Below are positions 27,980 to 51,683 of a DNA stretch of 64,000 nt, one piece after another. Below the pieces are notes generated by a model. That model did no database searches and was not told the origin of the DNA. It saw only the letters and a program-made list of their open reading frames with translations. Each line of letters starts with the position of its first letter. The first letter of the stretch is position 1. Location: assembly GCA_900546225.1 (NCBI GenBank), contig URBZ01000002.1, positions 78,411 to 142,410 of the forward strand. The letters run 5' to 3'. The DNA is from an uncultured Rickettsiales bacterium. GTDB taxonomy: Bacteria; Pseudomonadota; Alphaproteobacteria; Rs-D84. The translations under genes were made by a program, and so were the position numbers.

Positions 27980-29152
27980 ATGAAAGGTGCCACAATGCTT
28001 TTACGCAATAATTTATTTCGTTTTGAGAAGCCGGACAATTTCCAAAATCTTTCAACTTCCAGATTAATGAATGGTTTGGTTTATGATTTTAACGATCCTT
28101 ATATTCCATTTTTTACACCAATTGGTACACGACTGTTCAACAACATAGAAAATATATTTAAACAAAATGCTATGCGTATTGATTGTAATGAGGTTATTAT
28201 TCCACAATTAATGACCACAGAGTTATTGACCCAAGGTCAAGAAATTGGTGAATTGTTTGGGCGTAAAGTAATGCATCTATCAGGTACGATGGCAGAGTTC
28301 CATCTTCTTACATCTCCGGAGATGATGTTTATAAATATGTTGAAAAAAAATAACATAGAGAGTAATGCGCTGCCAATACATTACTATTTTGTATCTAATT
28401 TTTTCAGAGATATGCATGATCCAAAAAACATACTTCGAACTAAGCAATTGCGTGTTATTGCAGGTATTTCTTTTGACAAAACACAGAATGATAGATTGAA
28501 GACAGAAAATAAACTGTTACAAACTTTGCACAACACGTTTGTTGATTGTAAAGTCCCATTCTTAGCAGAGTATGGCTCTAGTGGATTTACGTGCGAATAT
28601 TTTTACATGAATTCCAAAGAAACAGAAAACTATATAATTCCAAGCATAAATCCGCACAAGAAAACAAAAGCTCTCAGCTTCGCAATGATTTATGATTATG
28701 GTCAAGAATGTCCATTTGATGTTTTACACAAAAATTCAGTAACAGGGCTAAAAGACAAAACCTTTATGACATCATACGCAATAAGCGCCCAGCGATTACT
28801 TTATGTAATAATGGATTCGTGCAGAGATAGCAAAGGCTTTTCAATGCCATCTAATATCCGTCCATACGATGTCGCGCTCATAACAAATGAACAGCAATCG
28901 GATATAGCGCAGAAAATGGCGCGAGATTTGTCATGCAGTGGTATCTCTTCCTATATAGACAATATGTTTACTAAGGCGCACGTTAAGCGTCTGGATGTTG
29001 CCGATTACATAGGAGTCGGATTAAAAATTGTTAATAAGAATGATAAGTTTACTGTCTTTAACCGCGATGGAGAGATGCTGATAACAGGCTTCGCACCAGA
29101 CCTGATTATTTCAGCGGTTAAGGATTCGATTATAGCACAAAAACAAAAATAG
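27980..29152 (+). CDS. class IIa aminoacyl-tRNA synthetase paralog (ProRS/HisRS/ThrRS-like catalytic core plus a C-terminal anticodon-binding-like domain)
   Basis: 390 aa from ATG 27980 (RBS GGAGAGGA). Motif-1-like VIIPQLMTTELLTQGQ. Motif-2-like FFRDMHDPKNILRTKQLRVIAGISFD. Motif-3-like SYAISAQRLLYVIMD. C-terminal PYDVALITNEQ...GISSYIDN...DYIGVGLKIVNK..FTVFNRDGE resembles the HGTP anticodon-binding fold. Confidence 0.55.
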   Translation: MKGATMLLRNNLFRFEKPDNFQNLSTSRLMNGLVYDFNDPYIPFFTPIGTRLFNNIENIFKQNAMRIDCNEVIIPQLMTTELLTQGQEIGELFGRKVMHLSGTMAEFHLLTSPEMMFINMLKKNNIESNALPIHYYFVSNFFRDMHDPKNILRTKQLRVIAGISFDKTQNDRLKTENKLLQTLHNTFVDCKVPFLAEYGSSGFTCEYFYMNSKETENYIIPSINPHKKTKALSFAMIYDYGQECPFDVLHKNSVTGLKDKTFMTSYAISAQRLLYVIMDSCRDSKGFSMPSNIRPYDVALITNEQQSDIAQKMARDLSCSGISSYIDNMFTKAHVKRLDVADYIGVGLKIVNKNDKFTVFNRDGEMLITGFAPDLIISAVKDSIIAQKQK

Positions 29153-29221
29153 TTAAACTGCTTTGCGAGAAGAAAGATACTGTAATTTTCAGAAACAGTA
29201 TAGTGGCTTTTTGAAAAACCA

Positions 29222-29252
29222 GAAAATGCTTGGTAATAATTACATTACTACC
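29222..29252. terminator. bidirectional terminator between the convergent aaRS-like gene and the MccF-like gene (GCTTGGTA...TACCAAGC flanked by A/T runs)
   Basis: 8-bp inverted repeat with A-run upstream and T-run downstream. Confidence 0.5.
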
Positions 29253-29271
29253 AAGCAAAATTTTTACCCGC

Positions 29272-30312
29272 TTAGATAACAGCATTTTCTAAGATAGAAA
29301 ACTTTTTATTTATCATATCCATCTCTGCCAATGCGCCATATGGCAGGTAAAACATAGGGTCTGTGTGTCCGAAATCCATTTGGGTTATAATAGGCATATC
29401 ACTACGACCACATTCGCGTGTGATTGTCAGTAATGCATTTTCGTAAATTGATAAATTGTCTCTGCTGCCTTTTGCCCGTCCCATAATAATCCCCGATATT
29501 CTGTTAAGGATTCCTTGGGCTGCTAAACTGCGCAACCAATACAAAAGCATATCTTCTGGTGGCAAGCTTTCGGACGTTTCAAGAAATAAAATTGCTTTAT
29601 CAAATTCATCCGTTTTAGGAAATAGCTCTGTCCCTGTCAGCATCAATAATACCTCAAAACAACCACCAATCAATCTGCCACGCACTACAGAATTACCTTG
29701 CAAATAATTTGGCCCAGTATATGGATACAGTTTCCGTTTGATTTTTAAATTTTCAGGATATGTCCAATCTAAAAATTCGTCTGTCCAACCATCGGTTGCG
29801 GGTAAAATTTCCCCGATGACATCAGTAGCAAATAATGTTTTCTTTGTTTGCTCTATTGTATATGGAAACAAGCTGACATTTTCGCCGAACCCAGCCATTA
29901 CGGTAGGTCCATAGATAGAGCTTAATCCCGCTTTATAGCACATAAAGTGAATTGCGGTTGGATCAGAATACCCCAAAAAAATCTTTGGATTATTTTTGAT
30001 GATATTCAAATCCAGATATGGGAATAATCTGATACAATCATCACCACCAATGATAGAAATAATCGCTTTTACTTCTGGATTTTCAAACGCCCACATCAGG
30101 TCTTTTGCACGTTCTTCGGGATGTTCATATAAATAATCAATTGATTGCAAAGCGTTCGGAGTTTCTATCACTTTTAGCCCAAAGTTATTTTCTATTTGAC
30201 TTTTCCCCCATTGATATTGATGCGGGAAACGACTTGCTGAACCATAAGAGCAACTAATTGCTGCAACTGTATCGCCAACTTGCAGGGCTTTGGGTTTTAT
30301 TAATGTTTTCAT
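29272..30312 (-). CDS. S66-family serine peptidase, MccF-like (microcin C7 self-immunity / LD-carboxypeptidase fold)
   Basis: 346 aa (MccF is about 344, LdcA about 304). Motifs VGDTVAAIS, IIGGDD, GYSDPTAIH (nucleophile Ser), ...MDFGHTDPMFYLPYGALAEMD (catalytic His). RBS AAGGGAGAA. Confidence 0.75.
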   Translation of the reverse strand: MKTLIKPKALQVGDTVAAISCSYGSASRFPHQYQWGKSQIENNFGLKVIETPNALQSIDYLYEHPEERAKDLMWAFENPEVKAIISIIGGDDCIRLFPYLDLNIIKNNPKIFLGYSDPTAIHFMCYKAGLSSIYGPTVMAGFGENVSLFPYTIEQTKKTLFATDVIGEILPATDGWTDEFLDWTYPENLKIKRKLYPYTGPNYLQGNSVVRGRLIGGCFEVLLMLTGTELFPKTDEFDKAILFLETSESLPPEDMLLYWLRSLAAQGILNRISGIIMGRAKGSRDNLSIYENALLTITRECGRSDMPIITQMDFGHTDPMFYLPYGALAEMDMINKKFSILENAVI

Positions 30313-30345
30313 GCTGTTTTCTCCCTTGGTTTTATATTCGGAGCA

Positions 30346-38987: not shown

Positions 38988-39224
38988 TCAAAAACGTAAT
39001 GCCATGGATATTAAAACAAGCCCGTGTGACCGCTGATTTGTTCGTTGTCGATGTAAATGACCCCTTGGGAAAACGCATCGCATTGGTCTTTGAATATGCA
39101 CCCCAGAAACGCCAACAATTCCTTTTTGAATTCTGTCCACCACGGACCAGCTTCGTTCGGGAATAATATGTGATTTTATAAGTTCCCTTTCTTGCCCACA
39201 AAATTTACAAATTCTAACTACCAT
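38988..39224 (-). pseudogene. truncated HNH-type protein fragment (N-terminal CxxC...HIIPE only)
   Basis: 78 aa. MVVRICKFCGQERELIKSHIIPE resembles the N-terminus of the 346-aa HNH-like protein at 55602..56642 (CIFCGKKPENKNKEHVIPQWL). The rest of the fragment is low-complexity. Confidence 0.3.
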
Positions 39225-39434
39225 ACGGTAAAAATAGTTTTTTTAATGTGATTGTCAAGATTTAGAACCACCCATACTCAATATAGACATCATTTGAAAT
39301 ATCGACAAAAAACATTCAACTCCAAGTTGTATTTTTCAAATACATACACAATATTTCCTAAAAACGCATAAGACAGTCAATAAATACATAACACACATGC
39401 AAATTCAATCAATCATAAAAAGGGACTTATAAAA

Positions 39435-41735
39435 TTATATTTTTATACTCAATGCGTTAAAATGCTTTTTGTCTGTACTTTTGATAAAATGGAACAAATC
39501 TGCAATTTCGTCTCGGCCAGCCACATAGCTAAAGTTCTGACATCCGGAAATCGCGCCAACACCATTCGAATGAGAAAACGCATTGGCCACGCCCCATAAA
39601 TAGTGAAATCTATTATTATCATTTTCTGTCAGACAGTTAAACTTTTTCAAATACGAATTTGTATTAGGAATCTTTGCATCCAAGTAAGTTTCTAGTACCC
39701 GTCGAATAAGATTACCTATGCATACGTCTGGGGGTGTTCGTTTATTCTGATAAAATTCATTTAATTTCTGTACAAGATCCAAATATTCAGAAGTACTGTT
39801 TTGTAAGTAATCACTAGCCATTCTAATCTTTGAACCCACTGATGCTATTTTTTGTATTTCAAATATCTTGAAATTATTCTTATCTATATGTTTCATAGCT
39901 TCTCTAATTTTTACAAAAAAATAGAAATTATGTGTCAGCAATATTACTTGCTCACATTTTTTTATAGTGGTAACTATCCAGTCACCTATTTGGAATAGAT
40001 TCTTACTATCCAAGCTAGAAACAGGATCATCAATAACTATTATTGGACTTTCCTTTCCGGCTTTTTTCATCGATTGAATTGGAATGATAAAATACAAAAA
40101 TGCGATAAGAGTTTTCTCACCTTCGCTTAGATTTTTTGCATCAACGAATGTACCATCGTCAAGCTTTCTTTGTATTGTATAAACATTCTCCCTTGGGCCC
40201 TCTCTAAAAGAGATATTATTTAATGCAGATTGTTCCAATGCTTTATTGATCAACATAATAATTTTAGACTTCTCGGCCAACTTACGCTTACAATCCAGTT
40301 TCTGCTTTTCTAAATCACCTAATCTTTGTTTGTCTGTATCCCTATCTTTTGTTTTTTGTTTTATTTTTTCATCCATTATATTTAATGTCTGTGAATTCTT
40401 TTGGATATAAAACAGAACCACTTGCTGCTTATATTTTACTTTTCTACTTTCCAGAGAATCTATAATTGCATTGTGTTGTTGTATTATAACCTCTATCGTC
40501 TTTATCGATTTTATTAAACATTGTAAATTATCATATATCTGATTTTCGTACGTTATAGAATACGTTGTCTCCAAATTAAGTGCTTTTTTTGCAACAGATT
40601 CATCTAATTTTTCTAAGAGTGGTTTCAGCTCTATCAATATGTTATTTATTTGATTCTTTTCTGCAATATACCTATCATACGCACTGTCCCTAGATAATTT
40701 AGAAGCATCCGGCAAAGATATTTCAACTTGTTCTATAAGTTCCCTATTATCTCTCAAGACATCTATTAACGTCCAAAAAGCTTTTTCTTGCATATCAAAA
40801 ACAACATCTTTCTTGACCAACTCTTTTATTTCTTGATAACGCTGCTGCCAGAAATCATCGGCAATCTTTTGATTACAAAACAAACAATTAGAATGATTAC
40901 CCCGGTGCAATGCCAAGCCACTTTCTAACCACTGTTTTATATTCTCTGTTCCAGGATTGGAATTTCTGGATAACGATGTCTGCAAAATATCTATTATCGA
41001 TTTATACGCATCAATATTGAAATCTGCATCAAAGTTTCTTAATTTATTGACTATATTTAATTCTATTTTCGTTTTTATTGGTTCAATAAAAATATCTCTT
41101 GCGTGATTTTTTTCTTCTTCACTAATGCGTTCCTCTTTATCCTGTTGCACACGTTCTAAATCTATCTTTAATTGCTTTTGTGTATACTTCTGCGGGCTAT
41201 CAATATGCAAGCAAATACGTATTTCTTTTGCAACATTACTTAGAAAATCATTTTTTTGTTGTTCTAGCTTTTGCAGCTCTATATTTGACTTTAAGTCCGT
41301 ACCACCACCAACAACAAGGGTTTCAATATCCGCATTGATTTTATTTAGTTTTTCTGTAATTTTTATATTTTGATCACCAATAATAATATCAACTTTGTTT
41401 GCTCGAGATTTTTTTAAGGAAAGATTATTCTCTATAAAATCCGTATTAAAAACTTTTATTTTATCTATCAATGGCCCATCTACTACAGAACGAAAAACCT
41501 TTCTTTTTCCGCCAACTTTGTAACACAACTCGCCTTTAGAAAAATTGTACAGCACGTTATTTTCATTGTCTACGTATTGCATTTGACCACGACTGATACA
41601 TTCAAACATTCGACTAAGAGTTGTTTTCCCAGTGCCATTGTAACCATAAAACAGATTGTATTTTGCTAATTTTACTGTTTCTGACTGCTTACGAAAACTA
41701 CCTATGTTAGAAATCTTTTGAATAGCATCTATCAT
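39435..41735 (-). CDS. RloC/PrrC-family AAA ATPase with coiled-coil insertion (predicted anticodon-nuclease-type abortive-infection protein)
   Basis: 766 aa. Walker A GYNGTGKTT. Long coiled coil with CLFCNQ (CxxC, zinc-hook-like). ABC signature NLSEGEKTLIAFLYF. Walker B IIVIDDPVSSLD. H-loop LLTHNFYF. C-terminal about 160 aa with IRRVLE (RxxxE), then His about 33 aa later in RFHYLW (PrrC-like ACNase spacing). Confidence 0.55.
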   Translation of the reverse strand: MIDAIQKISNIGSFRKQSETVKLAKYNLFYGYNGTGKTTLSRMFECISRGQMQYVDNENNVLYNFSKGELCYKVGGKRKVFRSVVDGPLIDKIKVFNTDFIENNLSLKKSRANKVDIIIGDQNIKITEKLNKINADIETLVVGGGTDLKSNIELQKLEQQKNDFLSNVAKEIRICLHIDSPQKYTQKQLKIDLERVQQDKEERISEEEKNHARDIFIEPIKTKIELNIVNKLRNFDADFNIDAYKSIIDILQTSLSRNSNPGTENIKQWLESGLALHRGNHSNCLFCNQKIADDFWQQRYQEIKELVKKDVVFDMQEKAFWTLIDVLRDNRELIEQVEISLPDASKLSRDSAYDRYIAEKNQINNILIELKPLLEKLDESVAKKALNLETTYSITYENQIYDNLQCLIKSIKTIEVIIQQHNAIIDSLESRKVKYKQQVVLFYIQKNSQTLNIMDEKIKQKTKDRDTDKQRLGDLEKQKLDCKRKLAEKSKIIMLINKALEQSALNNISFREGPRENVYTIQRKLDDGTFVDAKNLSEGEKTLIAFLYFIIPIQSMKKAGKESPIIVIDDPVSSLDSKNLFQIGDWIVTTIKKCEQVILLTHNFYFFVKIREAMKHIDKNNFKIFEIQKIASVGSKIRMASDYLQNSTSEYLDLVQKLNEFYQNKRTPPDVCIGNLIRRVLETYLDAKIPNTNSYLKKFNCLTENDNNRFHYLWGVANAFSHSNGVGAISGCQNFSYVAGRDEIADLFHFIKSTDKKHFNALSIKI

Positions 41736-41752
41736 CGTGTAACTTCTTATGC

Positions 41753-43078
41753 TTATTTTAGATCCTCAAATGCTTTCGCCATTGTCGGGTTATTTCTTGT
41801 CAAACGTTTTATTGATAAATTCTGCGCTTTATCATTAGCCAAACGCAGATTATTTTCAGTCCCGAGTAAGGCATCCTTTATTTTTTGCAAGTGATCTATT
41901 GTCTTATCAATTTCTTCTATAGCCTTCTTGAATTTGTCGCTGGCTGTTTTATAATTCCGACCAAAGCGATCTCTAAACTCATTCATTTCTGCTTCAAAAT
42001 TTGAGACATCGATATTGGCCTGCTTGTATTCTGCAATTTGTTGTTTGTATTGAACAGAATTCAGTGCCGCATTCCGTAACAATGTTATAATTGGAATAAA
42101 ACATTGTGGTCTTACAACATACATTTTTGGATATTTGTGCGACACATCAACAATACCAGCATTATATAATTCATTGTCAGATTCCAGCAACGAAACCAAA
42201 ACAGCATATTCACAATTTTTATCCTTTCGGTCTTTATCAAGTTCTTTGAAAAAATCTTCATTTTTGTGTTTTGTGGCTGTTGTATCCATCTCGTTTTTCA
42301 TTTCAAACATAATGGATATAAATTCCGTTTTTTTATCAACATCTGCATAATCACGAAATATAAAATCGCCCTTACTTCCATTCTTGACTTCGTTGTCTTT
42401 TTCGAAATATGCATTTGGGAATGCTGCAGGCCGCATCCGTTCAAATTCAATATGACAGTGTTGTTCCAATGTCTCTCCTACCATTTTTGTGGACATTTTT
42501 GTTTTCATGTCCTTGTATAGCGCAATTTCGACATCTTTTGCCTTTAATTGTGCATCATATTCACTTTTTAATGTTTGTTGTTTTAATTCAATATCTTGTG
42601 CGGCCGCCTTTACTTCGCCCTGCAAGGCAAGAATTTGCGCGTCTTTTTCAAAAAGCATATCCTTTGATTTACTTAATGCCTTTTCTACTGCAATTACCTT
42701 TTCCTGCTCTGATGCATTTATACGTGCTTTGAATTCGACAATTTGTTCATTCAAACATGCAATAGACTTTGCTTTGTCCGCTTCTATACCCGCAATTTTT
42801 AACTTCATTTCAGCCGCAGCATCGCGCTCTGCCGATGAAATTTTCTCTTTGAGTGTTGCTATTTCTTCTTTTAACGCAGAAATTGATAATTCTTTATCGT
42901 TTTTTGCCTGTTCTTTTAATAAGTCGATTTCACTTTTTGATTGCGCCTTATATTGTTGTAATCGCAACGCAACCTCCTTGTCAAACTCAACATTTTTAAT
43001 TTGACTTACAATCGCTGCATAACCCGATTCATCAATAGTGAATTGCGTATTACATTTCGGACATTTTATCTCGTGCAT
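41753..43078 (-). CDS. DUF2130 family protein (N-terminal zinc ribbon, long coiled coil, C-terminal nuclease-like domain)
   Basis: 441 aa from ATG 43078 (RBS AAGGAGAAATAT). N-terminus MHEIKCPKCNTQFTIDESGYAAIV is typical of DUF2130. 17 nt upstream of the RloC-like gene. Confidence 0.65.
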   Translation of the reverse strand: MHEIKCPKCNTQFTIDESGYAAIVSQIKNVEFDKEVALRLQQYKAQSKSEIDLLKEQAKNDKELSISALKEEIATLKEKISSAERDAAAEMKLKIAGIEADKAKSIACLNEQIVEFKARINASEQEKVIAVEKALSKSKDMLFEKDAQILALQGEVKAAAQDIELKQQTLKSEYDAQLKAKDVEIALYKDMKTKMSTKMVGETLEQHCHIEFERMRPAAFPNAYFEKDNEVKNGSKGDFIFRDYADVDKKTEFISIMFEMKNEMDTTATKHKNEDFFKELDKDRKDKNCEYAVLVSLLESDNELYNAGIVDVSHKYPKMYVVRPQCFIPIITLLRNAALNSVQYKQQIAEYKQANIDVSNFEAEMNEFRDRFGRNYKTASDKFKKAIEEIDKTIDHLQKIKDALLGTENNLRLANDKAQNLSIKRLTRNNPTMAKAFEDLK

Positions 43079-43088
43079 ATATTTCTCC

Positions 43089-43421
43089 TTAAATCTTGGA
43101 CACATCTAGGTCAACATGCGCGACACACTGCTGCTCACATTTGTGTTGACACTGTTCATCTGTGTACCATTGACCATCACGCACAACCAAGCGAGACATT
43201 TTTGCAATTTTAAAGCAACGCCACGACGCAGGTATTTCCGTTGGTATCTGCCCTTTGCTGCTTTCTCCAGCAAACTGATACCCTAGCAACTGTTCTTGGC
43301 CTTGGTCATTCAATCCGATTATATGTGGACACACTTCTCGATGAAATCCGTCATAATCAAAAAACAATTGCTGTTTGTGCTCAATTGCACCCCTAATAAC
43401 CATATAGTTTTCAGACGCCAT
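43089..43421 (-). CDS. small WYL-like domain protein (no HTH)
   Basis: About 110 aa from MASENY (RBS AAGAGGAAAAAGC). QLFFDYDGFHREVCPHIIG...LLGYQF...IPASWRCFKIAKMSRL fits the WYL-fold pattern (R.v.P..l...W.R.FrldRI). Stop is 10 nt before the DUF2130 start. Confidence 0.35.
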   Translation of the reverse strand: MASENYMVIRGAIEHKQQLFFDYDGFHREVCPHIIGLNDQGQEQLLGYQFAGESSKGQIPTEIPASWRCFKIAKMSRLVVRDGQWYTDEQCQHKCEQQCVAHVDLDVSKI

Positions 43422-44021
43422 GCTTTTTCCTCTTGTTTTACAATAAAGAGATAGCACACATTAGGAACAAAAGCAATAACTTATTGTAATTACTGTATTT
43501 TAGGAAATTTTTCCCAATATTTTTGTGATATATTGCTTTTATGTGCAACATAACTGGATATATTGTCGCGCATCACGCGCTTTTTTGCACCAATACAGAG
43601 TATTACAGACCACAATTCAACCACAGGTTGTACAAAGACGAAAATTCAATTTATTTTTTACAAACATCCTAACCATCAGACAAAATTCGCGTGATACGCG
43701 AATTTATGCAAATATTCAATCACCGGTTACACAATGCGTTTTTTATAAAGAAATCAACCAATACTAGAATTTACACCTAATTTTGTACTATATGCAAACT
43801 TTTTTACAACTTTACACATTTATACCATTTAGACAATCGACATCTGAAAACCGCCCTGCAATTCAACCATTGGTTGAATTGTTTATATTTTTCTATCACT
43901 GCTTACAAAAACAGCTGTTTTTTCTACCACAGATTGTATTTTATGACAAAATCAACTTATTGTAGAATACACTGTTCGTTTTTTGAGATTTTACGTAATT
44001 ATCACACAAAAAACATATCTC

Positions 44022-44915
44022 GTTATAGGCTGCTTCTCAAATCGTCTTTGATATAATCATTTTTTCGTTCGCTTTTCGCAACTTACAGTTATAGGTTGCT
44101 TCTCAAATCGTCTTTGATATAATGTGAATTACCAGAAATAGGCAATTTAACCTGTTATAGGTTGCTTCTCAAATCGTCTTTGATATAATTTATATGCTTA
44201 GCATGTGCGAGCGTCTACGGTTATAGGTTGCTTCTCAAATCGTCTTTGATATAATCCAGCATTCGCAACGGTACAAATCAACCCGGTTATAGGTTGCTTC
44301 TCAAATCGTCTTTGATATAATCGAAATATGTAGAACAGAGCACTCGAAGGAGTTATAGGTTGCTTCTCAAATCGTCTTTGATATAATGGCACATCTTTGT
44401 CAACCTGCGCCTGCAAAGTTATAGGTTGCTTCTCAAATCGTCTTTGATATAATGTCAACAGTCGCAATAACATTTCCCATCGTGTTATAGGTTGCTTCTC
44501 AAATCGTCTTTGATATAATAAAAAGGATTAAGCTATGATACTCAGAGATGTTATAGGTTGCTTCTCAAATCGTCTTTGATATAATGTCAACAGTCGCAAT
44601 AACATTTCCCATCGTGTTATAGGTTGCTTCTCAAATCGTCTTTGATATAATAACACAATCCCGGTGTGGTATGTAAACCTGGTTATAGGTTGCTTCTCAA
44701 ATCGTCTTTGATATAATCGAATTCAAAGACCTTGATTGGGCGCATTTGTTATAGGTTGCTTCTCAAATCGTCTTTGATATAATATTCGGGGTTGTACCAC
44801 GTAACACAATTCCGTTATAGGTTGCTTCTCAAATCGTCTTTGATATAATAAACCATTCGAACACATTTACACGTGCAATGTTATAGGTTGCTTCTCAAAT
44901 CGTCTTTGATATAAT
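44022..44915 (+). CRISPR. CRISPR array, 14 x 36-bp repeats (GTTATAGGTTGCTTCTCAAATCGTCTTTGATATAAT), 13 spacers of 30 nt, period 66
   Basis: Repeat starts at 44022, 44088, 44154, 44220, 44286, 44352, 44418, 44484, 44550, 44616, 44682, 44748, 44814, 44880. The first repeat is degenerate (GGC for GGT). Spacers 7 and 9 are identical. Each repeat ends in TTTGATATAAT (extended -10). Confidence 0.95.
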
Positions 44916-44922
44916 AGACACA

Positions 44923-44957
44923 CAAAAACCCACTGATAAAAGTGGGTTTTTGTGTAT
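44923..44957. terminator. bidirectional hairpin terminator between the array and cas2 (CACAAAAACCCACT-GATAAA-AGTGGGTTTTTGTG)
   Basis: 14-bp inverted repeat seen directly in the sequence; symmetric, so functional on both strands. Confidence 0.5.
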
Positions 44958-45018
44958 TATATTCAACAAAAAACGTACGTATTGCCATCGGCTGATGACG
45001 AATCGTCTTGTTTTTTTA

Positions 45019-45351
45019 TCAAAACATCAGTAATTGTTGCGAACTGATTTTTTCTGCCGTGGGCGCATCGCCAACCAAAAACAGCATATCTGCGAATTGT
45101 TTTTCCGTGACGGTTAAAACCCTGATTGAACCAGATGGCGGCGTCAAATGTCGCAATCGTTGTAAATGCTTCTCCATTCCGGCCAACCCCTTGACTATTC
45201 GGGAATATACCGAGAATTGCATCATGTAATACCCGTCGTTCAACAAGTCGTTTCTGAAACGCGTAGCATATTTCCGTTCACGCTTTGTGCCAACGGGCAA
45301 ATCAAAGAATACTATTATACGCATAAATTTTTCCTGACGGTTGTACAACAT
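45019..45351 (-). CDS. cas2: CRISPR-associated endoribonuclease Cas2
   Basis: 110 aa; MLYNRQEKFMRIIVFFDLPV...RFRNDLLNDGYYMMQFSVY. Confidence 0.85.
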   Translation of the reverse strand: MLYNRQEKFMRIIVFFDLPVGTKRERKYATRFRNDLLNDGYYMMQFSVYSRIVKGLAGMEKHLQRLRHLTPPSGSIRVLTVTEKQFADMLFLVGDAPTAEKISSQQLLMF

Positions 45352-45352
45352 T

Positions 45353-46267
45353 TTAGTTCTGGGTATTTACTATTTCTGGTGCTGATTTTATAGATGGCAA
45401 TTTCAATGCATCTAAGTTTTTATTACAAAAACATGTTGCCACGGATTCTGCATACAGCGGCATGGCATTCAGCACCGAATGTCGAACACCACCAAAGGCG
45501 CAACTGTGCAATAATACCGACACCAATCGTTGTTTGATATTTGGGGTTAAATGCGCACAACCATCAAAATCAAATGACAGCACAATAAAGTCCACAAATG
45601 GCCGCCACGGTTCAATCATGTCGTCGACCATGCAAAAATTATCAAGTTTGTTACAATGATGTACGCCATAAAAAGGTAACAGACCCGCACCAACCGCGCT
45701 GCGTGCGACACACCCGCGTAATATGGCATAGCCGTAATTCAATGCATGATTTCGTACATCGGCATCATCACTGCGGTTGAAATTTTCCCACAGGGCCGAC
45801 CAATAGATACGAGCCGCAAGCCCCTCTATATTTTTAGTGTCACCAGACGCGACATTTTCAGCCAAAATTTCCAAACGCTTATATGCGGGATTATCACACA
45901 ACTTTAAGATTGCCGATTGATTTCGAATTTTTTGTTTAACAATTTCTTGCCACATACGTTTACGGAATGGCAACGACGATGCAATTTGTGCATGCGCAAT
46001 TTCAGTATATCTGGAATTATTATGAAACGGAAAGAATGCACCATTCGGCAGGTGTGACGCATCACAAGAAAACGCAACCACGCCGTTTTCAGCCAATTCA
46101 GACATCAGCGCAGATGTAATTTGAATCTGGGGATTTTCCAGTATGACAACCGCGATATCTTCTAATGGGATATCTTGGACACCACCGGTGTCACCAGTCC
46201 AGTGCAGTTGCTTGTGCCGAACACAAATCCGACATGGATTTGTCAGGGTCAGAATACGCCAAGACAT
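45353..46267 (-). CDS. cas1: CRISPR-associated endonuclease Cas1 (type II)
   Basis: 304 aa; typical Cas1 beta-sandwich and alpha-helical domain motifs (HALNYGYAILRG...); 1-nt gap to cas2. Confidence 0.9.
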   Translation of the reverse strand: MSWRILTLTNPCRICVRHKQLHWTGDTGGVQDIPLEDIAVVILENPQIQITSALMSELAENGVVAFSCDASHLPNGAFFPFHNNSRYTEIAHAQIASSLPFRKRMWQEIVKQKIRNQSAILKLCDNPAYKRLEILAENVASGDTKNIEGLAARIYWSALWENFNRSDDADVRNHALNYGYAILRGCVARSAVGAGLLPFYGVHHCNKLDNFCMVDDMIEPWRPFVDFIVLSFDFDGCAHLTPNIKQRLVSVLLHSCAFGGVRHSVLNAMPLYAESVATCFCNKNLDALKLPSIKSAPEIVNTQN

Positions 46268-46315
46268 TTAATTGTCCTTTGTTTGTATCCTTTCCCACAC
46301 AGGTGATATAGTGCA

Positions 46316-49264
46316 CTATTTTCGTTTTACAACCGGCGTGCGCTGTTCTGGCAACTTTATCGGTTTTGGTGTACCCAGTAATGACACAGCAAACTTTTCA
46401 ATGTTTGTGCATTTACCAACAGATTTTTTCACAACCTGTGTCCGATTGTTATCTTGGCGATACAATATGAAGTTTGTGCCATGATCCATTTTGGTGATAT
46501 ATCCTTCGTACACACCATCTGCAGCGGTCAGGCGAACATAATCGTCCTTGTGTAACGAACAGACAAATTCACCATCTGGGACTTTGAAGACATCGTCATC
46601 TTTCCCCTTGGTATCGGTAACAAAAATCGGAACACACACGTATTTGCCATGCGCATTGCGCCAAATATCAAATCGAAACATATCGCCACGAACAGCGCGT
46701 CCATGTCGAATTTCCAGTGATCCTTTGTCGCGATTTTTATTCAGACCACGTTTTGAACGATATGATTTTGGATCTGCGTAAATTGTTTCATCGTGCGCCG
46801 CACCCGTGGCGTTACAACGTGGCGGGCGCGATACAATAATATCGTTCAAGCAGGAGATAACATCAGTACGAAAACCGTTCCATGGTTCTTGGATAGAAGT
46901 TTTCAGTGCGGTATACCATGCCTGACCATATTTTTGAATCAGCGCATATTTGTTTTCAAATCGCGCCGACAGCGTTGACAGGTACTTTACCATACCCTGT
47001 GTCGCACATGCGATTACAATCGCGTCTTGGGCATGATGTTTGTCTGATTCATCACGATTTTTGACCAAGCCCCACTGGTGACGCAGATAGTCCGTCAAAG
47101 AACCAGTACGCACCAATACTCGCTTTTTTATATCATCAGATGCAGGCCAATCGATACCATATTCCAAATATTCCGTGGCGAACTTGGCAATAGTGGCATT
47201 ATCATTCGCGTTACGTTCAATAAAACCGTTTTGTTCGGCATCACACTTGGGTAAATCGGTGTTCGTCAATTTTTTGAACTTTGCAGGATTATGCAAGGCA
47301 CGCGCACGCACCGTCATGTCATAAAATTGTTCAGATGTCAGAAACTCATATGGCGTTTTGCTGCCCTTGCGTTGATTACATTCGTGACAGACCAAAACCC
47401 TGTTGCTCTGCGAATTATCAAGGGAACGCGAATATGGCAAAATATGGTCTATTTCATACGCCCCCCAATCACCAGCAGCCAATACCGCATTACAGTATGG
47501 GCACTTGCCACCCTGCTCCATATACAATTTATACTTAAAGTAATTTTTGCCGTACTCTTTGCGGGCTTCTTCGGTTGCCTGACGATTGCGTTCCTGTTCG
47601 CGATTCATGCGCGCAATATCATCGGGCGAATTTTTTAATTCACGACCGATTTCCAAATGGATTCTGTCGGGCGCGCCAAACCGATAAACCATCGCATTAT
47701 AAACCTTGCGTAATTGGACAAGGGTTCGCTTGGCAACTGGTGATGTAATACGATTACCCAGCAAAGTCCAATTTATCTGGTGCAGATGCCCCGCTGGCGC
47801 GCCGTCGTCGCGATTTATATACGACACGTTTTGTGCCCTGAAATCTTTGTTCAGGCCAGATGCAACCGCTTCGTTATACTTTTTGCCATTCTCCATTTCA
47901 GGAATAATTTTTTGCAATGCAGAGATAGACAACTTGATAAATTCTGAACTGGTGATTTGTGCGATTGCGGCGGCATGTTCTGGCAATATTTCAGACACAG
48001 CGCGTTCAATATTTTCCGGCGTTTTCTGGGTTGCGATGACATCAAATATCTTGTCCATCGTGTCTATATCGGTTGTGTATTTGGCCAGTTTATGCCAACC
48101 CGTAAATGCATAGAATTTCTGACATTCGATTTTCTTGATATCAGGTTCAATCCACACCTTGTTTTCTTTGTCATATATACGGGAATAGTTCAACGTTTTG
48201 AACTGTTTATCATCGTCCCATTTCAACAGGTTACGCACGTCGGCATATTTCAGCCCCGTTTTCTTTTTATATAACTCATCTATAACTGTCTGGGTTTCAG
48301 CAACCGTAAAATCATTTTGGCGACACTTGGTCAATGCGACAAACTTTTGCGCCGTTGGCGATTCCTTGGGCGCGACCGGTTCATTCGTGAACGGACATTT
48401 GCCACGCATTTCCGCAATAGATTTGGCCAATGGCGATGCAGATTCATTAAATTTACGTTGGCGACACGCAACAGCCCACCATTTTTCAAACGCGTCCGAA
48501 AAATCATTACCAAAGTCACGTTGCGCGTGCAAAATCATTTCTGCTTCGCGCTTGATTTCCGAACGCGGAATAGAACTTGAATACGTTGATTGCACTTCTG
48601 TTTTTTGCGTGCCGTCTTTTGCGATTTTGACAACGCTTTTTCTGCCGTTGCGCATCTGAGCGTGTTCGGTGGCATACAGCATTTGGCACATTGTTTGATC
48701 CGGATTTTCACGTTGCAGTTTGGCCAAATTATCTTTGATTGCACCAATGGCTTTTAATTCCTCTTTGGACTCTGCGTCGTCCGCCTTTTCTGATTTTGCA
48801 CCAGCTGGCACAGGGTATGTTATATCATCGTACCCGCGATGCTTTGCCAAATGGTACAAGATGCGTCCTGTTTCACGCGGCGTCAGTTTTCGCGTAAAAG
48901 CGTCAACCGCACGCAGTTGCCAGATGTTTATATCCGTATCACGGTTCAGATAAAAATTATTTTGTCCGTCAGATTTTGGTTCTGGAATATCAATCAGATG
49001 GTATTGACGTAAAATATCGCGAATTTCGCGCATACGCTGTGCACGATGTCTGATTCTGCGACGCGCACCACGCGCCGTGCGACGATCGGCGGCATTTTGT
49101 GCCTGATCAAAACAGCGCACACCCGCACCCACTATTTCACCCACGGGGCGGCTGTCGGGCGCGGACGCATCTGTGGTTGATGCCGTTGGATCTGACATTC
49201 TAACAGCGGCCCAACCGATACTGGCGATACCCAAATCGAATCCAAAAATCAAAGACATGTGCAT
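46316..49264 (-). CDS. cas9: Cas9, compact type II-C
   Basis: 982 aa. RuvC-I IFGFDLGIASIGWA. Arg-rich bridge helix. HNH YEIDHILPYSRSLDNSQSNRVLVCHECNQRKG. RuvC-III HHAQDA. No csn2 or cas4 nearby, so subtype II-C. Confidence 0.95.
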   Translation of the reverse strand: MHMSLIFGFDLGIASIGWAAVRMSDPTASTTDASAPDSRPVGEIVGAGVRCFDQAQNAADRRTARGARRRIRHRAQRMREIRDILRQYHLIDIPEPKSDGQNNFYLNRDTDINIWQLRAVDAFTRKLTPRETGRILYHLAKHRGYDDITYPVPAGAKSEKADDAESKEELKAIGAIKDNLAKLQRENPDQTMCQMLYATEHAQMRNGRKSVVKIAKDGTQKTEVQSTYSSSIPRSEIKREAEMILHAQRDFGNDFSDAFEKWWAVACRQRKFNESASPLAKSIAEMRGKCPFTNEPVAPKESPTAQKFVALTKCRQNDFTVAETQTVIDELYKKKTGLKYADVRNLLKWDDDKQFKTLNYSRIYDKENKVWIEPDIKKIECQKFYAFTGWHKLAKYTTDIDTMDKIFDVIATQKTPENIERAVSEILPEHAAAIAQITSSEFIKLSISALQKIIPEMENGKKYNEAVASGLNKDFRAQNVSYINRDDGAPAGHLHQINWTLLGNRITSPVAKRTLVQLRKVYNAMVYRFGAPDRIHLEIGRELKNSPDDIARMNREQERNRQATEEARKEYGKNYFKYKLYMEQGGKCPYCNAVLAAGDWGAYEIDHILPYSRSLDNSQSNRVLVCHECNQRKGSKTPYEFLTSEQFYDMTVRARALHNPAKFKKLTNTDLPKCDAEQNGFIERNANDNATIAKFATEYLEYGIDWPASDDIKKRVLVRTGSLTDYLRHQWGLVKNRDESDKHHAQDAIVIACATQGMVKYLSTLSARFENKYALIQKYGQAWYTALKTSIQEPWNGFRTDVISCLNDIIVSRPPRCNATGAAHDETIYADPKSYRSKRGLNKNRDKGSLEIRHGRAVRGDMFRFDIWRNAHGKYVCVPIFVTDTKGKDDDVFKVPDGEFVCSLHKDDYVRLTAADGVYEGYITKMDHGTNFILYRQDNNRTQVVKKSVGKCTNIEKFAVSLLGTPKPIKLPEQRTPVVKRK

Positions 49265-49548: not shown

Positions 49549-51324
49549 TTATCGGTTGATCATTGTGGGGATTACGATTTCGTCGTTGTAATAGCCCAAG
49601 AATCGTTTTCCGGTGGCGCAGTATATTTTCTGCAACGAATCCTTGTATTCGCGCACGGCCGTGACCCAACGGTTTTCAATATCGGATTGCGCCCCTTGGT
49701 ATCCGGCGTATGCACCCAACGCACCACCAGCACCCGCGCCAATCAATGTGCCTTTTAATCTGGCCTTGTTACCAAAGTCAATAATACCACCATCGGACGC
49801 ATCGACCATTATTGGGTAGAAGTCGCTGATGCTGTATTCGCCGTCCAAAGCATATCCAGCACCACTGGACGTGCGGCCCAAGATTGTATGCCCTGATAAA
49901 TCTGTTTTCAATTTGGCCCAATCAGAACGCTTGTAACCAAATGCCTTGTCATTGACGTCGGCAATCATCGCAGGAATCTGTGTACCGGTGGCAATGGTGG
50001 CACTGGAAATCTTGGCATACATCGCACTGTCAGGATTTGCACCATTTTTCATTTCGTTTTTTTCGGTCAGATAAAACTGTTTTGCTGAATCAGCTTTGAC
50101 CTTTTCGAACCCTTCCTTGGCCACAGCTTCAATGTCTTTGTTCGGGTATGCCTCTAGTTTAATATTCAACAGGGTTTCTTGTTTACAACCAGTATCGTCT
50201 GAGTTACATACTAATGTTGTTTCGTCGCCAGTGTTGTAATAAGCGTTTTTACCAGACAGTGCCGTACTCTTTCTGATAACACCCCACAGGCACTTGGAAT
50301 TTTTATTCTGTGGCTCGGCGGGTTTATCGTCCGTTGTGGCACTGGCGGACGCGGACGCAGTCGCGCTGGCTGAACCGGTATTATTGGACGTATCTGACTT
50401 TTCCTGATTTGATTTTGGTTTTTCGGTGATGCTGGGTATTTTGCAATCCTCGATACGCAGGACAGATTCCCCACTGGCGGCAATGTTGCCAATCATACTG
50501 CCCGCGGCGGCGTTGACACCAGTTGACAGAATTGTGTCACCTGCAACCTTGCCAGAATAGGCATTGCCCGCCATCAGTGCTGCGCCGCTGAGTGCGCCGA
50601 TGATTGTGCCGGTGGTTTTATGTTTGCCACCGCCCAATATACTGTCACTGCCGATTTCGTTTTTGCCGGCGGCATTGCCCGCCAGACCACCAATCACCGT
50701 GCCCGCCGCGATGCGCAGGCCGGCGTTTTGTTTCTGTTCCGCATTTAATACCTGAACCACGTCCGCACGGGTCGGTTCGTTGTCCGCGGGGAATGTAACC
50801 TGTGCCGCGTCGGTGGTGTATGAAAATTCAGGAAAGTCAGAGATATTACATTTGACCGCATCGCCAGCCGCCAAATTTGCGCGCGCCAAAACGGCATCAG
50901 AACCGTCCAGTCCCATTTGATAGCCACGCAATTCGACAACCGCGACACACGTTGATGCGCCACCCGCACCATTGCCAACCGTCGGCGAATCCCATGCAAA
51001 TTCGCCATTTGGATATACCATTGCGCAAGAATCCAGTGTTGCAATACTGACACGCGAATCCGTTTCGCCACGTGATAACTTTTGTGCCAATTCACGATTT
51101 GCCACCCGCACCGGCAGGTTTGTTTCCGCGTCCGCCGACTGGGTCGTGGCAGTTGGTGTGGCGGCGGCCGCTGCGGCCGCTGCAATCTGTTCACGTTGGG
51201 CATTTACCTGTTGATAGCCGGCTGCATAACTGCGCGATGCGTTGCCAACACGCACTGCGGCGGCGGCGTGGCCGCCAGATAATAGAGCATAGATAATAGA
51301 TAATAGATAATAGTTATATTTCAT
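49549..51324 (-). CDS. secreted Gly/Ala-rich (glycine-zipper-like) hypothetical protein
   Basis: 591 aa. N-terminal signal-like MKYNYYLLSIIYALLSGGHAAAA; these first codons are encoded by the left inverted repeat of the adjacent cassette. Many GxxxG repeats. Confidence 0.45.
   Translation of the reverse strand: MKYNYYLLSIIYALLSGGHAAAAVRVGNASRSYAAGYQQVNAQREQIAAAAAAAATPTATTQSADAETNLPVRVANRELAQKLSRGETDSRVSIATLDSCAMVYPNGEFAWDSPTVGNGAGGASTCVAVVELRGYQMGLDGSDAVLARANLAAGDAVKCNISDFPEFSYTTDAAQVTFPADNEPTRADVVQVLNAEQKQNAGLRIAAGTVIGGLAGNAAGKNEIGSDSILGGGKHKTTGTIIGALSGAALMAGNAYSGKVAGDTILSTGVNAAAGSMIGNIAASGESVLRIEDCKIPSITEKPKSNQEKSDTSNNTGSASATASASASATTDDKPAEPQNKNSKCLWGVIRKSTALSGKNAYYNTGDETTLVCNSDDTGCKQETLLNIKLEAYPNKDIEAVAKEGFEKVKADSAKQFYLTEKNEMKNGANPDSAMYAKISSATIATGTQIPAMIADVNDKAFGYKRSDWAKLKTDLSGHTILGRTSSGAGYALDGEYSISDFYPIMVDASDGGIIDFGNKARLKGTLIGAGAGGALGAYAGYQGAQSDIENRWVTAVREYKDSLQKIYCATGKRFLGYYNDEIVIPTMINR
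51278..51324. repeat. left inverted repeat (GATAATAGAGCATAGATAATAGATAATAGATAATAG) of the four-helix-bundle cassette, with AGATAAT tandem units
   Basis: Its reverse complement TATCTATGCTCTATTATC recurs at 51684-51701. Confidence 0.6.
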
Positions 51325-51683
51325 TTTTTCTTTACCTGCTTTTTTGTCTTGATGGTGGCCGTCAATAATTTCATTATCTCTTCACAGTCAGAATTTATAC
51401 TCTCATACCATTCTGTTGGAATTAAACCAACATTCTTTAACAAATCTAACCAATACAACGTTTCTGAACACTCCTTGTACGCAATATAAACTTTGGCTAA
51501 AAAATCATCTGCCGATATTGCGCATTTGGCCTCTGATAGATTTGCGCCGATGCTTGTTCCCGACCGCAACAACTGACGAGATAAAATTATTTCGTTTTTC
51601 TCTCCTGTTAAATATTTACACAACTTATAGATACGAACAGCGAAATCCTTACTCTTTTGTACCGTTACGCTATTTGCCGTCAT
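51321..51683 (-). CDS. four-helix-bundle protein (23S rRNA intervening-sequence protein family, PF05635-like)
   Basis: 120 aa; LLRSGTSIGANLSEA....KECSETLYWLDLL matches the family signature (RSxxSIxANIAEG...KExxETxYWL). Confidence 0.75.
   Translation of the reverse strand: MTANSVTVQKSKDFAVRIYKLCKYLTGEKNEIILSRQLLRSGTSIGANLSEAKCAISADDFLAKVYIAYKECSETLYWLDLLKNVGLIPTEWYESINSDCEEIMKLLTATIKTKKQVKKK

What the first reader, a model, noticed from the sequence alone, without database searches (positions are those of the whole stretch)
39435..41735. RloC-like architecture details: zinc-hook CxxC inside the coiled coil and PrrC-type catalytic triad spacing
Walker A GYNGTGKTT, signature LSEGEKTLIAFLYF, Walker B IIVIDDPVSSLD and H-loop LLTHN define the PrrC/RloC ATPase head. 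The sequence CLFCNQKI lies within the long coiled-coil insertion, as in RloC (a Rad50-like DNA-damage-sensing hook). In the C-terminal domain, IRRVLE is followed about 33 aa later by RFHYLW, mirroring PrrC Arg320/Glu324/His356.
Basis: partly seen in the sequence, partly recalled or inferred. Interest (0 to 1): 0.55.

Follow-up and report, generated by a model that had tools for sequence, protein, structure and literature searches.

The report
Divergent RloC-type anticodon nuclease gene

Summary
It matches Pfam AAA_13 end to end (E 5e-88) and PADLOC PDC-S06 (E 3e-91). Its homologues are named "wobble nucleotide-excising tRNase" (RloC) by JGI.

- **Hook:** in 45 aligned family members, C284 and C287 are invariant. 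They lie in the longest non-helical loop of an 80%-helical insert that splits a Rad50/SMC-like ATPase head.
- **Arg and Glu:** R678 is invariant and E682 is present in 44/45.
- **His:** The conserved one is S721-H722 (AFSHSNG; H in 44/45). This gives R-X3-E-X39-H, inside the published RloC range (X36-52, Ser before His).
- **Numbering check:** a homologue that shares the published G. kaustophilus RloC numbering (D572/R692/E696/H737) aligns H737 with H722, and aligns H711 with a Tyr.
- **Context:** no type I or III restriction gene lies in the window. The gene follows a DUF2130 nuclease-family gene and a type II-C CRISPR-Cas locus, inside a low-GC island.

Verdict: a new, divergent member of a known kind, of low interest.

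The parts
39435..41735 (-). rloC-like gene, 766 aa (stop codon included)
   Evidence: ORF list. Pfam AAA_13 at E 5.1e-88. PADLOC PDC-S06 at E 3.1e-91. Homologues are named 'wobble nucleotide-excising tRNase' by JGI.
41619..41645 (-). Walker A / P-loop, GYNGTGKTT (residues 31-39; K37)
   Evidence: G31, G36 and K37 are invariant in 45 sequences. Corresponds to GkaRloC K44 and EcoPrrC K46 (PMC3458546, PMC1484252).
40230..41378 (-). Helical (coiled-coil type) insert splitting the ATPase head, residues ~120-502
   Evidence: In the AF2 model, 306 of 383 residues are helical, in 11 helices. The PDB profile search hits coiled-coil proteins over profile positions ~283-480. Foldseek's best matches are Rad50, SMC, JetC, LmuB and SbcC.
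40875..40886 (-). CxxC zinc-hook motif, C284-L-F-C287
   Evidence: Both Cys are invariant in 45/45; W269 and G273 are invariant; H277 (42/45) and F286 are nearly invariant. The motif lies in the longest non-helical stretch of the insert (277-292), between helices 263-276 and 293-340. It aligns with C289/C292 of the GkaRloC-numbering surrogate P0280.
40089..40130 (-). ABC signature, LSEGEKTLIAFLYF (residues 536-549)
   Evidence: S537 is invariant; L536, E538, G539 and E540 are nearly invariant.
40008..40043 (-). Walker B / D-loop, IIVIDDPVSSLD (residues 565-576)
   Evidence: D569, D570, P571 and D576 are invariant. Corresponds to GkaRloC D572 and EcoPrrC D222.
39927..39941 (-). H-loop / linchpin His, LLTHN (H602)
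   Evidence: H602 and Q596 are invariant. Corresponds to EcoPrrC H251 (PMC1484252).
39438..39815 (-). C-terminal HEPN-fold anticodon-nuclease domain, residues 641-766
39690..39704 (-). R678-R-V-L-E682: the Arg and Glu of the ACNase triad
   Evidence: R678 is in 45/45 and E682 in 44/45. They align with R692/E696 of P0280, the published GkaRloC positions.
39570..39575 (-). S721-H722: the conserved catalytic His of the triad (corrected assignment)
   Evidence: H722 is in 44/45 and S721 in 42/45. E682-X39-H722 lies within the RloC range X36-52. It aligns with H737 of P0280.
39594..39611 (-).
   Evidence: His in only 3/45 at this column, where E, T and K predominate. It pairs with Tyr in P0280.
41753..43105 (-). 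Upstream neighbour: DUF2130 protein (N-terminal zinc-ribbon-like CxxC, coiled coil, PD-(D/E)XK superfamily domain). Stop codon is 17 nt before the rloC start; possible operon partner.
   Evidence: Pfam DUF2130 at E 5.1e-90. Classed in the PD-(D/E)XK superfamily in PMC3424549. The adjacency is kept in L001-L004.
43089..43457 (-). Small ORF (110-122 aa) with a weak WYL-domain match; first gene of the three-gene string
   Evidence: PADLOC WYL at E 0.0019 only. No Pfam hit. Conserved with the string in L001, L003 and L004.

Best explanation
The gene encodes a full-length, apparently functional member of the RloC family. RloC is a single-polypeptide abortive-infection/stress device in which a Rad50-like ABC ATPase controls a C-terminal HEPN-fold anticodon nuclease.

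**Shown here**
1. The head carries intact Walker A (K37), signature (S537), Walker B/D-loop (D569/D570, D576) and H-loop (H602) motifs.
2. The head is split by a ~380-residue, 80%-helical insert. The longest loop of that insert carries the family-invariant C284-x-x-C287.
3. The last ~125 residues model as a HEPN fold and carry the family-conserved R678, E682 and S721-H722.

**Inferred by homology to G. kaustophilus and A. baylyi RloC**
1. The CxxC binds zinc at the tip of the coiled coil and keeps the nuclease silent.
2. Binding of DNA, especially DNA ends, to the head turns on ATP hydrolysis.
3. That unleashes the nuclease, which cuts tRNA anticodon loops in a metal-independent way: Arg stabilises the transition state, Glu acts as general base and His as general acid. 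It possibly excises the wobble nucleotide.
4. Translation is blocked and phage spread is limited.

The gene lies in a horizontally acquired low-GC island and is not linked to a restriction-modification locus. That is the usual situation for RloC.
For: **Family**
- Pfam AAA_13 at E 5.1e-88, covering profile positions 2-688 of 713.
- PADLOC PDC-S06 at E 3.1e-91 end to end, and PrrC at E 7e-11 over the ATPase part.
- Homologues of 730-811 aa (plus one 540-aa protein), many named 'wobble nucleotide-excising tRNase'.
- One homologue (P0010) sits between hsdS and hsdR of a type I R-M locus, the original 'restriction-linked ORF' arrangement.

**Residues**
- C284, C287 and R678 are invariant. E682 is in 44/45, S721 in 42/45 and H722 in 44/45.
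- The E-to-H gap is X36-X44 in 43 of 45 family members and X39 here. The published motif is R-X3-E-X36-52-H with Ser before His (PMC2610378).
- Offsets to the published GkaRloC residues K44/C291/D572/R692/E696/H737 are 7/7/3/14/14/15.
- BLASTP against P0280 is end to end (E 5e-30). P0280 has D572, R692, E696 and H737 at exactly the GkaRloC numbers. The alignment pairs C284/C287, R678, E682 and H722 with the corresponding residues.

**Fold**
- Full-length AF2 model, pLDDT 80. The best Foldseek PDB match is Rad50 (7zr1, E 1e-9), followed by SMC, JetC, LmuB, RecN, SbcC, RecF and AriA.
Against: - No biochemical evidence exists for this protein. Target tRNAs, wobble excision, zinc response and DNA dependence all rest on homology at about 24% identity to the characterised subfamily.
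- The actual GkaRloC, AbaRloC and EcoPrrC sequences could not be retrieved, so equivalence rests on a numbering surrogate and on published residue numbers.
I could not measure whether the CxxC lies at the distal apex of the coiled coil, or whether R678, E682 and H722 cluster in space.
- The ascending arm of the insert (120-276) is broken into seven short helices and is ~50 residues shorter than the descending arm, unlike a simple Rad50 hairpin.
- The loop right after H722 is modelled with low confidence: pLDDT <50 at 722-737 in the full model and at 727-731 in the domain model.
- The protein lacks the canonical HEPN Rx4-6H motif. It also lacks the His of the 'HFSK' motif that 36/45 homologues carry after the hook.
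Confidence: 0.85

Rival explanations
1. One reading: a PrrC-style triad R678/E682/H711, with the His in RFHYLW at PrrC-like spacing.
For: R678-to-H711 is 33 residues, against 36 in EcoPrrC (R320 to H356). The 90%-identical orthologue P0002 also has His at this column.
Against: The column is His in only 3/45 homologues and is usually E, T or K. H722 with a preceding Ser is conserved in 44/45 and fits the published RloC motif. In the alignment with the GkaRloC-numbering surrogate, H737 pairs with H722 and H711 pairs with Tyr.
Confidence: 0.04
2. RloC works here as one half of a two-gene module with the upstream DUF2130 protein. DUF2130 belongs to the PD-(D/E)XK nuclease superfamily and also has a coiled coil and a zinc-ribbon-like N-terminus. 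It would play the role Mre11/SbcD plays for Rad50/SbcC, tethering or presenting DNA ends to the ATPase head.
For: - 17 nt separate the DUF2130 stop from the rloC start, on the same strand, with no terminator-like site between them.
- The WYL-like/DUF2130/RloC string is kept in two genomic settings, with and without the CRISPR-Cas locus.
- In a lineage whose DUF2130 is 72% identical, the gene is again followed, with overlapping stop and start, by a different SMC-like ATPase of 730 aa.
- The RloC literature itself raised the idea of an associated DNase, by analogy with Mre11/SbcD (PMC2610378).
Against: - None of the 69 RloC-family loci from other species has a clear DUF2130 homologue nearby; there is one weak coiled-coil-level hit.
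- Other RloC homologues have quite different neighbours.
- DUF2130 is much more conserved than RloC: 60-72% identity across many lineages. In two of the three sampled contexts it stands among housekeeping genes with no ATPase next to it.
- The two settings that keep the string come from closely related genomes (90-99% protein identity), so their synteny carries little weight.
Confidence: 0.1
3. The CxxC is part of an intramolecular structural zinc knuckle (His-Cys-Cys, plus a further His in most homologues). It would not be a Rad50-type intermolecular hook that joins two coiled coils.
For: - H277 is conserved seven residues before the first Cys (42/45). A second His about 15-19 residues after C287 ('HFSK') is present in 36/45 homologues. 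Most family members therefore have four potential ligands in one chain.
- AF2 places short beta-bridges around the CxxC, like a knuckle.
- The ascending arm of the insert is fragmented rather than a single long helix.
Against: - In GkaRloC, hook-Cys mutations activate the nuclease and uncouple it from the DNA-dependent ATPase. The authors interpret this as loss of inhibitory hook joints (PMC2610378, PMC3458546).
- The window protein itself has Leu in place of the second His, leaving only three candidate ligands.
- No oligomer model or metal analysis is available for either reading.
Confidence: 0.2
4. The gene is an accessory effector of the adjacent type II-C CRISPR-Cas locus.
For: It lies about 2.3 kb from the CRISPR array, on the same strand. 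ABC-HEPN genes have been seen sporadically in CRISPR-Cas neighbourhoods (PMC3710099). CRISPR RNA accumulation and RloC activation coincide after DNA damage in A. baylyi (PMC3874168).
Against: A 90%-identical orthologue keeps the same three-gene string with no cas genes or array next to it. The ABC-HEPN proteins reported next to CRISPR belong to a different family with a classical HEPN motif. The other RloC homologues sampled are not next to cas genes.
Confidence: 0.03

Closest known systems
RloC (Geobacillus kaustophilus GkaRloC; Acinetobacter baylyi AbaRloC), COG4694 / Pfam AAA_13
   Same: - Size 766 aa, within the published range of 658-897 aa.
- ABC ATPase motifs present.
- Helical insert with an invariant CxxC.
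- C-terminal R-X3-E-X39-(S)H within the published X36-52 range.
- HEPN-fold nuclease domain.
- No linkage to an R-M locus.
   Different: - Only about 24% identity to the subfamily that carries the GkaRloC numbering. Outside two near-identical metagenomic relatives, at most 31% identity to anything found.
- Lacks the His of the 'HFSK' motif after the hook, and has a 4-residue insertion (DFWQ) there.
- Lacks the Lys/Arg seven residues before the catalytic His that many homologues have.
- Sits directly downstream of a DUF2130 gene.
PrrC (E. coli EcoPrrC anticodon nuclease)
   Same: - Same order of ATPase motifs: Walker A, signature, Walker B, linchpin His.
- An R-X3-E plus His triad in the C-terminal third.
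- The PADLOC PrrC profile matches the ATPase motifs (E 7e-11).
   Different: - PrrC is ~400 aa with no coiled-coil or zinc-hook insert.
- PrrC is always embedded in a type Ic hsd locus.
- PrrC has E-X31-H spacing and a 'PrrC box'.
- The PrrC profile does not reach this protein's nuclease domain beyond E682.
- No hsd genes lie in the window.
Rad50 / SbcC (and SMC-like defence ATPases JetC, LmuB)
   Same: The ABC head is split by a long helical insert with an apical CxxC. The best structural matches of the full-length model are Rad50, SMC, JetC, LmuB, RecN and SbcC.
   Different: - The insert is much shorter (~380 residues).
- No Mre11/SbcD-type phosphoesterase partner is present.
- It carries a C-terminal HEPN RNase domain that Rad50/SbcC lack.
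HEPN superfamily RNases (HEPN-MNT toxins, Csm6, Las1, LsoA, AbiV)
   Different: The canonical Rx4-6H motif is absent. As in RloC/PrrC, the Arg comes from an R-X3-E element about 40 residues upstream of the His.

Membership tests
RloC | [quoted passage not shown] | tested here: met
   All are present and fall on invariant or nearly invariant family columns: K37, S537, D569/D570, D576 and H602.
RloC | Largely alpha-helical insert splitting the ATPase domain, with a central loop carrying CX2C | tested here: met
   The AF2 secondary structure is 80% helix over residues 120-502. The CxxC lies in the 277-292 loop, and C284/C287 are invariant in 45/45. That the loop is the distal apex could not be measured, because no coordinates were available.
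RloC | C-terminal Arg-X3-Glu-X36-52-His motif, with Ser often preceding His (PMC2610378) | tested here: met
R678-X3-E682-X39-S721-H722. The residues are conserved in 45/45, 44/45, 42/45 and 44/45.
RloC | Residue-by-residue equivalence with experimentally mutated GkaRloC positions (K44, C291, D572, R692, E696, H737) | tested here: inconclusive
   The GkaRloC sequence itself was not retrievable. The surrogate P0280 carries D572/R692/E696/H737 at identical numbers and aligns with D570, R678, E682 and H722. This is strongly suggestive but indirect.
RloC | Size 658-897 aa; usually not linked to an R-M locus | tested here: met
   The protein is 766 aa. The only ORFs over 700 aa in the window are ParC/GyrA-like, Cas9 and this gene, so no HsdR or Res is present.
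RloC | [quoted passage not shown] | not testable with these tools
   Requires biochemistry. Inferred only from GkaRloC and AbaRloC (PMC2610378, PMC3458546, PMC3874168).
PrrC | Constant genetic linkage to a type Ic R-M (hsd/EcoprrI-like) locus | tested here: not met
   No hsdM, hsdS or hsdR was found near the gene or elsewhere in the window.
PrrC | ~400-aa protein with a contiguous ABC NTPase domain (no coiled-coil insert); R320-E324-X31-H356 spacing | tested here: not met
   The protein is 766 aa with a 380-residue insert. The spacing to the conserved His is X39. The PrrC profile covers only the ATPase motifs, up to E682.
Rad50/SbcC | Partner Mre11/SbcD nuclease; no C-terminal extra domain | tested here: not met
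   No phosphoesterase neighbour is present. A HEPN domain is appended to the C-terminus.
HEPN superfamily | HEPN helical fold | tested here: met
HEPN superfamily | Canonical Rx4-6H active-site motif | tested here: not met
   No Arg lies 5-7 residues before H722 (WGVANAFSH). The RloC/PrrC variant uses R-X3-E far upstream of the His.

The most novel reading that the evidence does not exclude
The tightly linked upstream DUF2130 protein would be a dedicated partner of this RloC. DUF2130 has a zinc-ribbon-like N-terminus, a coiled coil and a PD-(D/E)XK superfamily domain. Together the two would form a nuclease-plus-SMC-like-ATPase pair analogous to Mre11-Rad50/SbcCD, in which DNA-end recognition or processing by DUF2130 gates the tRNA-cutting HEPN domain. 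A related lineage places a different 730-aa SMC-like ATPase in the same position behind DUF2130, which hints at a swappable 'DUF2130 + ATPase effector' cassette.
Probability: 0.1. Interest if true: 0.55.

Novelty: new member of a known kind. Interest (0 to 1): 0.2.

Why it matters
- RloC is a recognised single-gene anti-phage and stress device, so this locus adds one more divergent member without changing the picture.
- The practical gain is a corrected active-site assignment: R678/E682/H722, not H711. Any mutagenesis would need this.
- The protein lies in a sparsely sampled branch, at most 31% identical to anything outside its own species group.
- The setting is a low-GC defence island in an uncultivated, probably alphaproteobacterial genome, next to CRISPR-Cas and a DUF2130 nuclease-family gene.
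- Only the possible DUF2130 partnership, or the conserved His-CxxC-His pattern around the 'hook', could lead to something new about how RloC senses DNA.

Tried and rejected
1. phmmer of the protein against all PDB sequences gave no hit. The profile search gave only weak Rad50, RecF and AriA head matches and coiled-coil noise. There is no solved RloC or PrrC structure to compare with.
2. I tried to align the nuclease domain to PrrC through the PADLOC PrrC profile. The full protein matches only residues 532-682. C-terminal fragments alone give no PrrC hit even at E up to 10. Direct equivalence to PrrC His356 therefore could not be tested.
3. The HEPN-superfamily paper's supplement holds no alignments as text.
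4. The single genome-contig scan, run with the family alignment, returned 69 loci at 20-39% identity (best segment).
5. The third homologue search, seeded with the subfamily whose numbering resembles GkaRloC, did not list GkaRloC itself. It gave only a numbering surrogate, P0280.
6. The afdb50 fold library was not available.
7. Model coordinates are not exposed. I could not measure the position of the hook at the coiled-coil tip or the distances between R678, E682 and H722.
8. The promoter/terminator scan of 38.8-44 kb found no more sites than shuffled sequence, so operon structure is inferred from spacing only.
9. I considered and rejected a CRISPR-accessory role, because the orthologous string occurs without cas genes. 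I also rejected PrrC membership, because there is no hsd linkage and the architecture is wrong.
Full report
**Observation**

The stated coordinates are exactly one ATG-initiated ORF on the minus strand, 39435..41735, of 766 aa. Gene callers on a 99%-identical contig produce the same 766-aa product.

| Motif | Sequence | Residues |
|---|---|---|
| Walker A | GYNGTGKTT | 31-39 |
| Hook | CLFCNQKI | 284-291 |
| ABC signature | LSEGEKTLIAFLYF | 536-549 |
| Walker B / D-loop | IIVIDDPVSSLD | 565-576 |
| H-loop | LLTHN | 599-603 |
| R-X3-E | IRRVLE | 677-682 |

**What family it is**

- The protein matches Pfam AAA_13 (PF13166) at E 5.1e-88 over residues 11-724, covering profile positions 2-688 of 713.
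- It matches the PADLOC candidate single-gene defence family PDC-S06 end to end (E 3.1e-91).
- The PADLOC PrrC profile matches much more weakly (E 7e-11), and only over residues 532-682 plus the P-loop.
- NCBIfam has no specific model; it gives only weak RecF and ABC-transporter matches.
- In the 5.8-billion-protein collection, two near-identical relatives were found (99% and 90% identity). After those the identity drops to 31% and then 22-29%.
- All but one of the 67 homologues found are 730-811 aa and all carry AAA_13. Many are named 'wobble nucleotide-excising tRNase', the RloC name, by JGI. A second search adds UniRef entries with the same name.
- One homologue (P0010) lies between hsdS and hsdR of a type I R-M operon, the arrangement that gave 'restriction-linked ORF C' its name.

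**The hook**

I aligned the query with 44 homologues (alignment A1).

- C284 and C287 are invariant in 45/45.
- W269 and G273 are invariant.
- H277 (42/45) and F286 are nearly invariant.

The full-length AlphaFold2 model has mean pLDDT 80 and pTM 0.54. It shows beta/alpha ATPase lobes at residues 1-119 and 503-640. Between them is an insert (120-502) in which 306 of 383 residues are helical.

The CxxC lies in the longest non-helical stretch of that insert (277-292), between helices 263-276 and 293-340. Foldseek against the PDB puts Rad50 first (7zr1, E 1e-9). Condensin and cohesin SMC heads, JetC, LmuB, MukB, RecN, SbcC, RecF and AriA follow.

So 'CxxC inside a long helical insert of a Rad50-like head' is supported.

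Three details differ from a simple Rad50 hairpin:

- The ascending arm is broken into seven short helices and is about 50 residues shorter than the descending arm.
- Most homologues have a His before the CxxC (H277) and another after it ('HFSK', 36/45). A single chain could therefore supply four zinc ligands.
- The window protein has Leu at the second His position.

**The catalytic triad**

R678 is invariant and E682 is present in 44/45. The histidine is wrong.

- The column of H711 (RFHYLW) is His in only 3/45 sequences.
- S721-H722 (AFSHSNG) is conserved in 42/45 and 44/45.
- Davidov & Kaufmann define the RloC motif as Arg-X3-Glu-X36-52-His, 'where Ser often precedes His'. In GkaRloC the residues are R692/E696/H737; in PrrC they are R320/E324/H356 (PMC2610378).
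- Here E682-X39-H722 fits. Across the alignment the gap is X36-X44 in 43 of 45 sequences. One outlier has X59, and one sequence has Pro at the His column. E682-X28-H711 fits neither RloC nor PrrC (X31).

The published numbers give consistent offsets. GkaRloC K44/C291/D572/R692/E696/H737 against K37/C284/D569/R678/E682/H722 differ by 7/7/3/14/14/15. H711 would need an offset of 26.

I could not retrieve the GkaRloC sequence. However, a 784-aa homologue (P0280) has D572, R692, E696 and H737 at exactly those numbers, and its K42 and C289 are the Gka numbers minus 2. BLASTP of the window protein against P0280 is end to end (residues 25-762 against 30-776, E 5e-30). It gives these pairings:

| Window protein | P0280 |
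|---|---|
| C284 / C287 | C289 / C292 |
| R678 | R692 |
| E682 | E696 |
| H722 | H737 |
| H711 | a Tyr |

The 'PrrC-type spacing' argument is therefore a coincidence. Four His residues lie in the 84 residues after E682.

**The nuclease fold**

- Named HEPN toxins of HEPN-MNT systems, HEPN-domain proteins and Csm6 lie among the ten best hits.
- Further down come Las1, the sacsin HEPN domain, LsoA and AbiV.

This agrees with the assignment of the RloC/PrrC nuclease domains to the HEPN superfamily (PMC3710099). The canonical Rx4-6H motif is absent, and the Arg comes from the upstream R-X3-E. The loop after H722 is poorly modelled (pLDDT <50).

**Mechanism (inferred)**

This rests on homology to GkaRloC and AbaRloC (PMC2610378, PMC3458546, PMC3874168).

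1. The hook keeps the nuclease silent.
2. DNA, especially DNA ends, together with ATP hydrolysis by the head activates it.
3. The HEPN domain then cuts tRNA anticodon loops, excising the wobble nucleotide in GkaRloC.
4. Translation is disabled during phage attack or after DNA damage.

None of these steps is shown for this protein.

**Context**

- The gene has 32-33% GC and lies in a low-GC island (about 26-45 kb) within a 45-50% GC backbone. The island starts right after a tRNA-Ser(TGA) gene at 26159-26248.
- On the same strand, from upstream to downstream, lie cas9 (46316-49264), cas1, cas2 and a CRISPR array. The array has 14 repeats of 36 nt and 30-nt spacers. After it come a small WYL-like ORF, a DUF2130 gene and rloC, which starts 17 nt after the DUF2130 stop.
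- DUF2130 matches Pfam at E 5e-90 and is listed in the PD-(D/E)XK nuclease superfamily in PMC3424549.
- The three-gene string recurs in a 90%-identical relative that has no CRISPR-Cas locus. A CRISPR-accessory role is therefore unlikely.
- DUF2130 is absent next to 69 other RloC-family loci. It is far more conserved than RloC and often stands alone.
- In one related lineage DUF2130 is followed by a different 730-aa SMC-like ATPase. A functional DUF2130-RloC partnership remains a minority possibility.
- No type I or III restriction gene lies in the window. This fits RloC and excludes PrrC.
- The host is probably an uncultivated alphaproteobacterium. This rests on a single named member of a 90%-identity cluster for a neighbouring housekeeping protein.

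**Verdict**

This is a divergent but otherwise typical RloC-family anticodon nuclease. The catalytic His should be H722, not H711, and the spacing is RloC-type, not PrrC-type. Novelty: a new member of a known kind. Interest is low.

Noticed in passing
window 44022-49264 (minus strand): A complete type II-C-like CRISPR-Cas locus: cas9 (46316-49264, 982 aa, with HNH and RuvC domains), cas1 (45353-46267) and cas2 (45019-45351). The array has 14 repeats of 36 nt (GTTATAGGTTGCTTCTCAAATCGTCTTTGATATAAT on the plus strand) with 13 spacers of 30 nt. A degenerate extra repeat lies near 43956. One spacer (GTCAACAGTCGCAATAACATTTCCCATCGT) occurs twice.
   Followed up: partly
window 38988-39224 (minus strand); L001 12512-18176: The 78-aa ORF just downstream of rloC is a chimera. 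Its first 23 residues match the start of a 285-aa gene, and residues 20-78 match the end of a ParB_N gene in the 99%-identical contig L001. The window strain has therefore lost about 5.4 kb that L001 retains: genes of 285, 82, 331 and 172 aa, a 521-aa AAA_21/DUF4435 ATPase, and most of the ParB_N gene.
   Followed up: yes
window ~26159-45000: A low-GC island (32-39% GC against 45-50% in the flanks) begins immediately after a tRNA-Ser(TGA) gene at 26159-26248. A relative (L003) has the rloC string joined almost directly to the lgt / His- or Pro-type tRNA synthetase region. In the window that region lies at about 21-24 kb. The 26-39 kb segment is therefore an additional insertion.
   Followed up: partly
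window 27959-33090: Island cargo resembles a small-molecule or peptide-nucleotide cluster. It holds an LD-carboxypeptidase of family S66 (29272-30312) and two SAM methyltransferases (30346-31236, 31238-32068). It also holds a short class II tRNA-synthetase-like protein of the Asp/Lys/Asn type (32086-33090, 334 aa) and a weak class II core match (27959-29152).
   Followed up: no
window 35422-38953 (plus strand): A run of repeat-rich proteins with no clear function: a MORN-repeat protein (35422-36405), a 128-aa ORF, a DnaJ-domain protein with no DnaJ C-terminal domain (37041-37727) and a 408-aa protein with no Pfam match (37727-38953). The same set is present in L001.
   Followed up: no
L085 4654-8197 (also L086, L087): In a lineage whose DUF2130 protein is 72% identical to the window's, the gene overlapping its stop encodes a 730-aa SMC_N-like ATPase. 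It has a signature/Walker B/H-loop like RloC's (LSQGEK, LLVFDD, LTHNF) but a degenerate P-loop (APNGVMKTS), no CxxC and no RloC triad. An 82-aa gene like the one downstream of rloC in L001 and L003 follows.
   Followed up: partly
alignment A1, columns of residues 277 and 306 of the window protein: Around the 'zinc hook', most RloC homologues carry a His 6-9 residues before the CxxC (42/45). Most also carry a His in an 'HFSK' motif about 15 residues after it (36/45). This H...CxxC...H pattern is not mentioned in the RloC papers I read. The window protein and its closest relatives have Leu instead of the second His.
   Followed up: partly
window 49549-51324, 51321-51683 (minus strand): Upstream of cas9 lie a 591-aa protein with no Pfam match and a 120-aa protein. 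In L003 the orthologue of the 120-aa protein matches the 23S_rRNA_IVP family. Both are conserved in the relative that lacks CRISPR-Cas, so they mark the edge of the conserved backbone.
   Followed up: no
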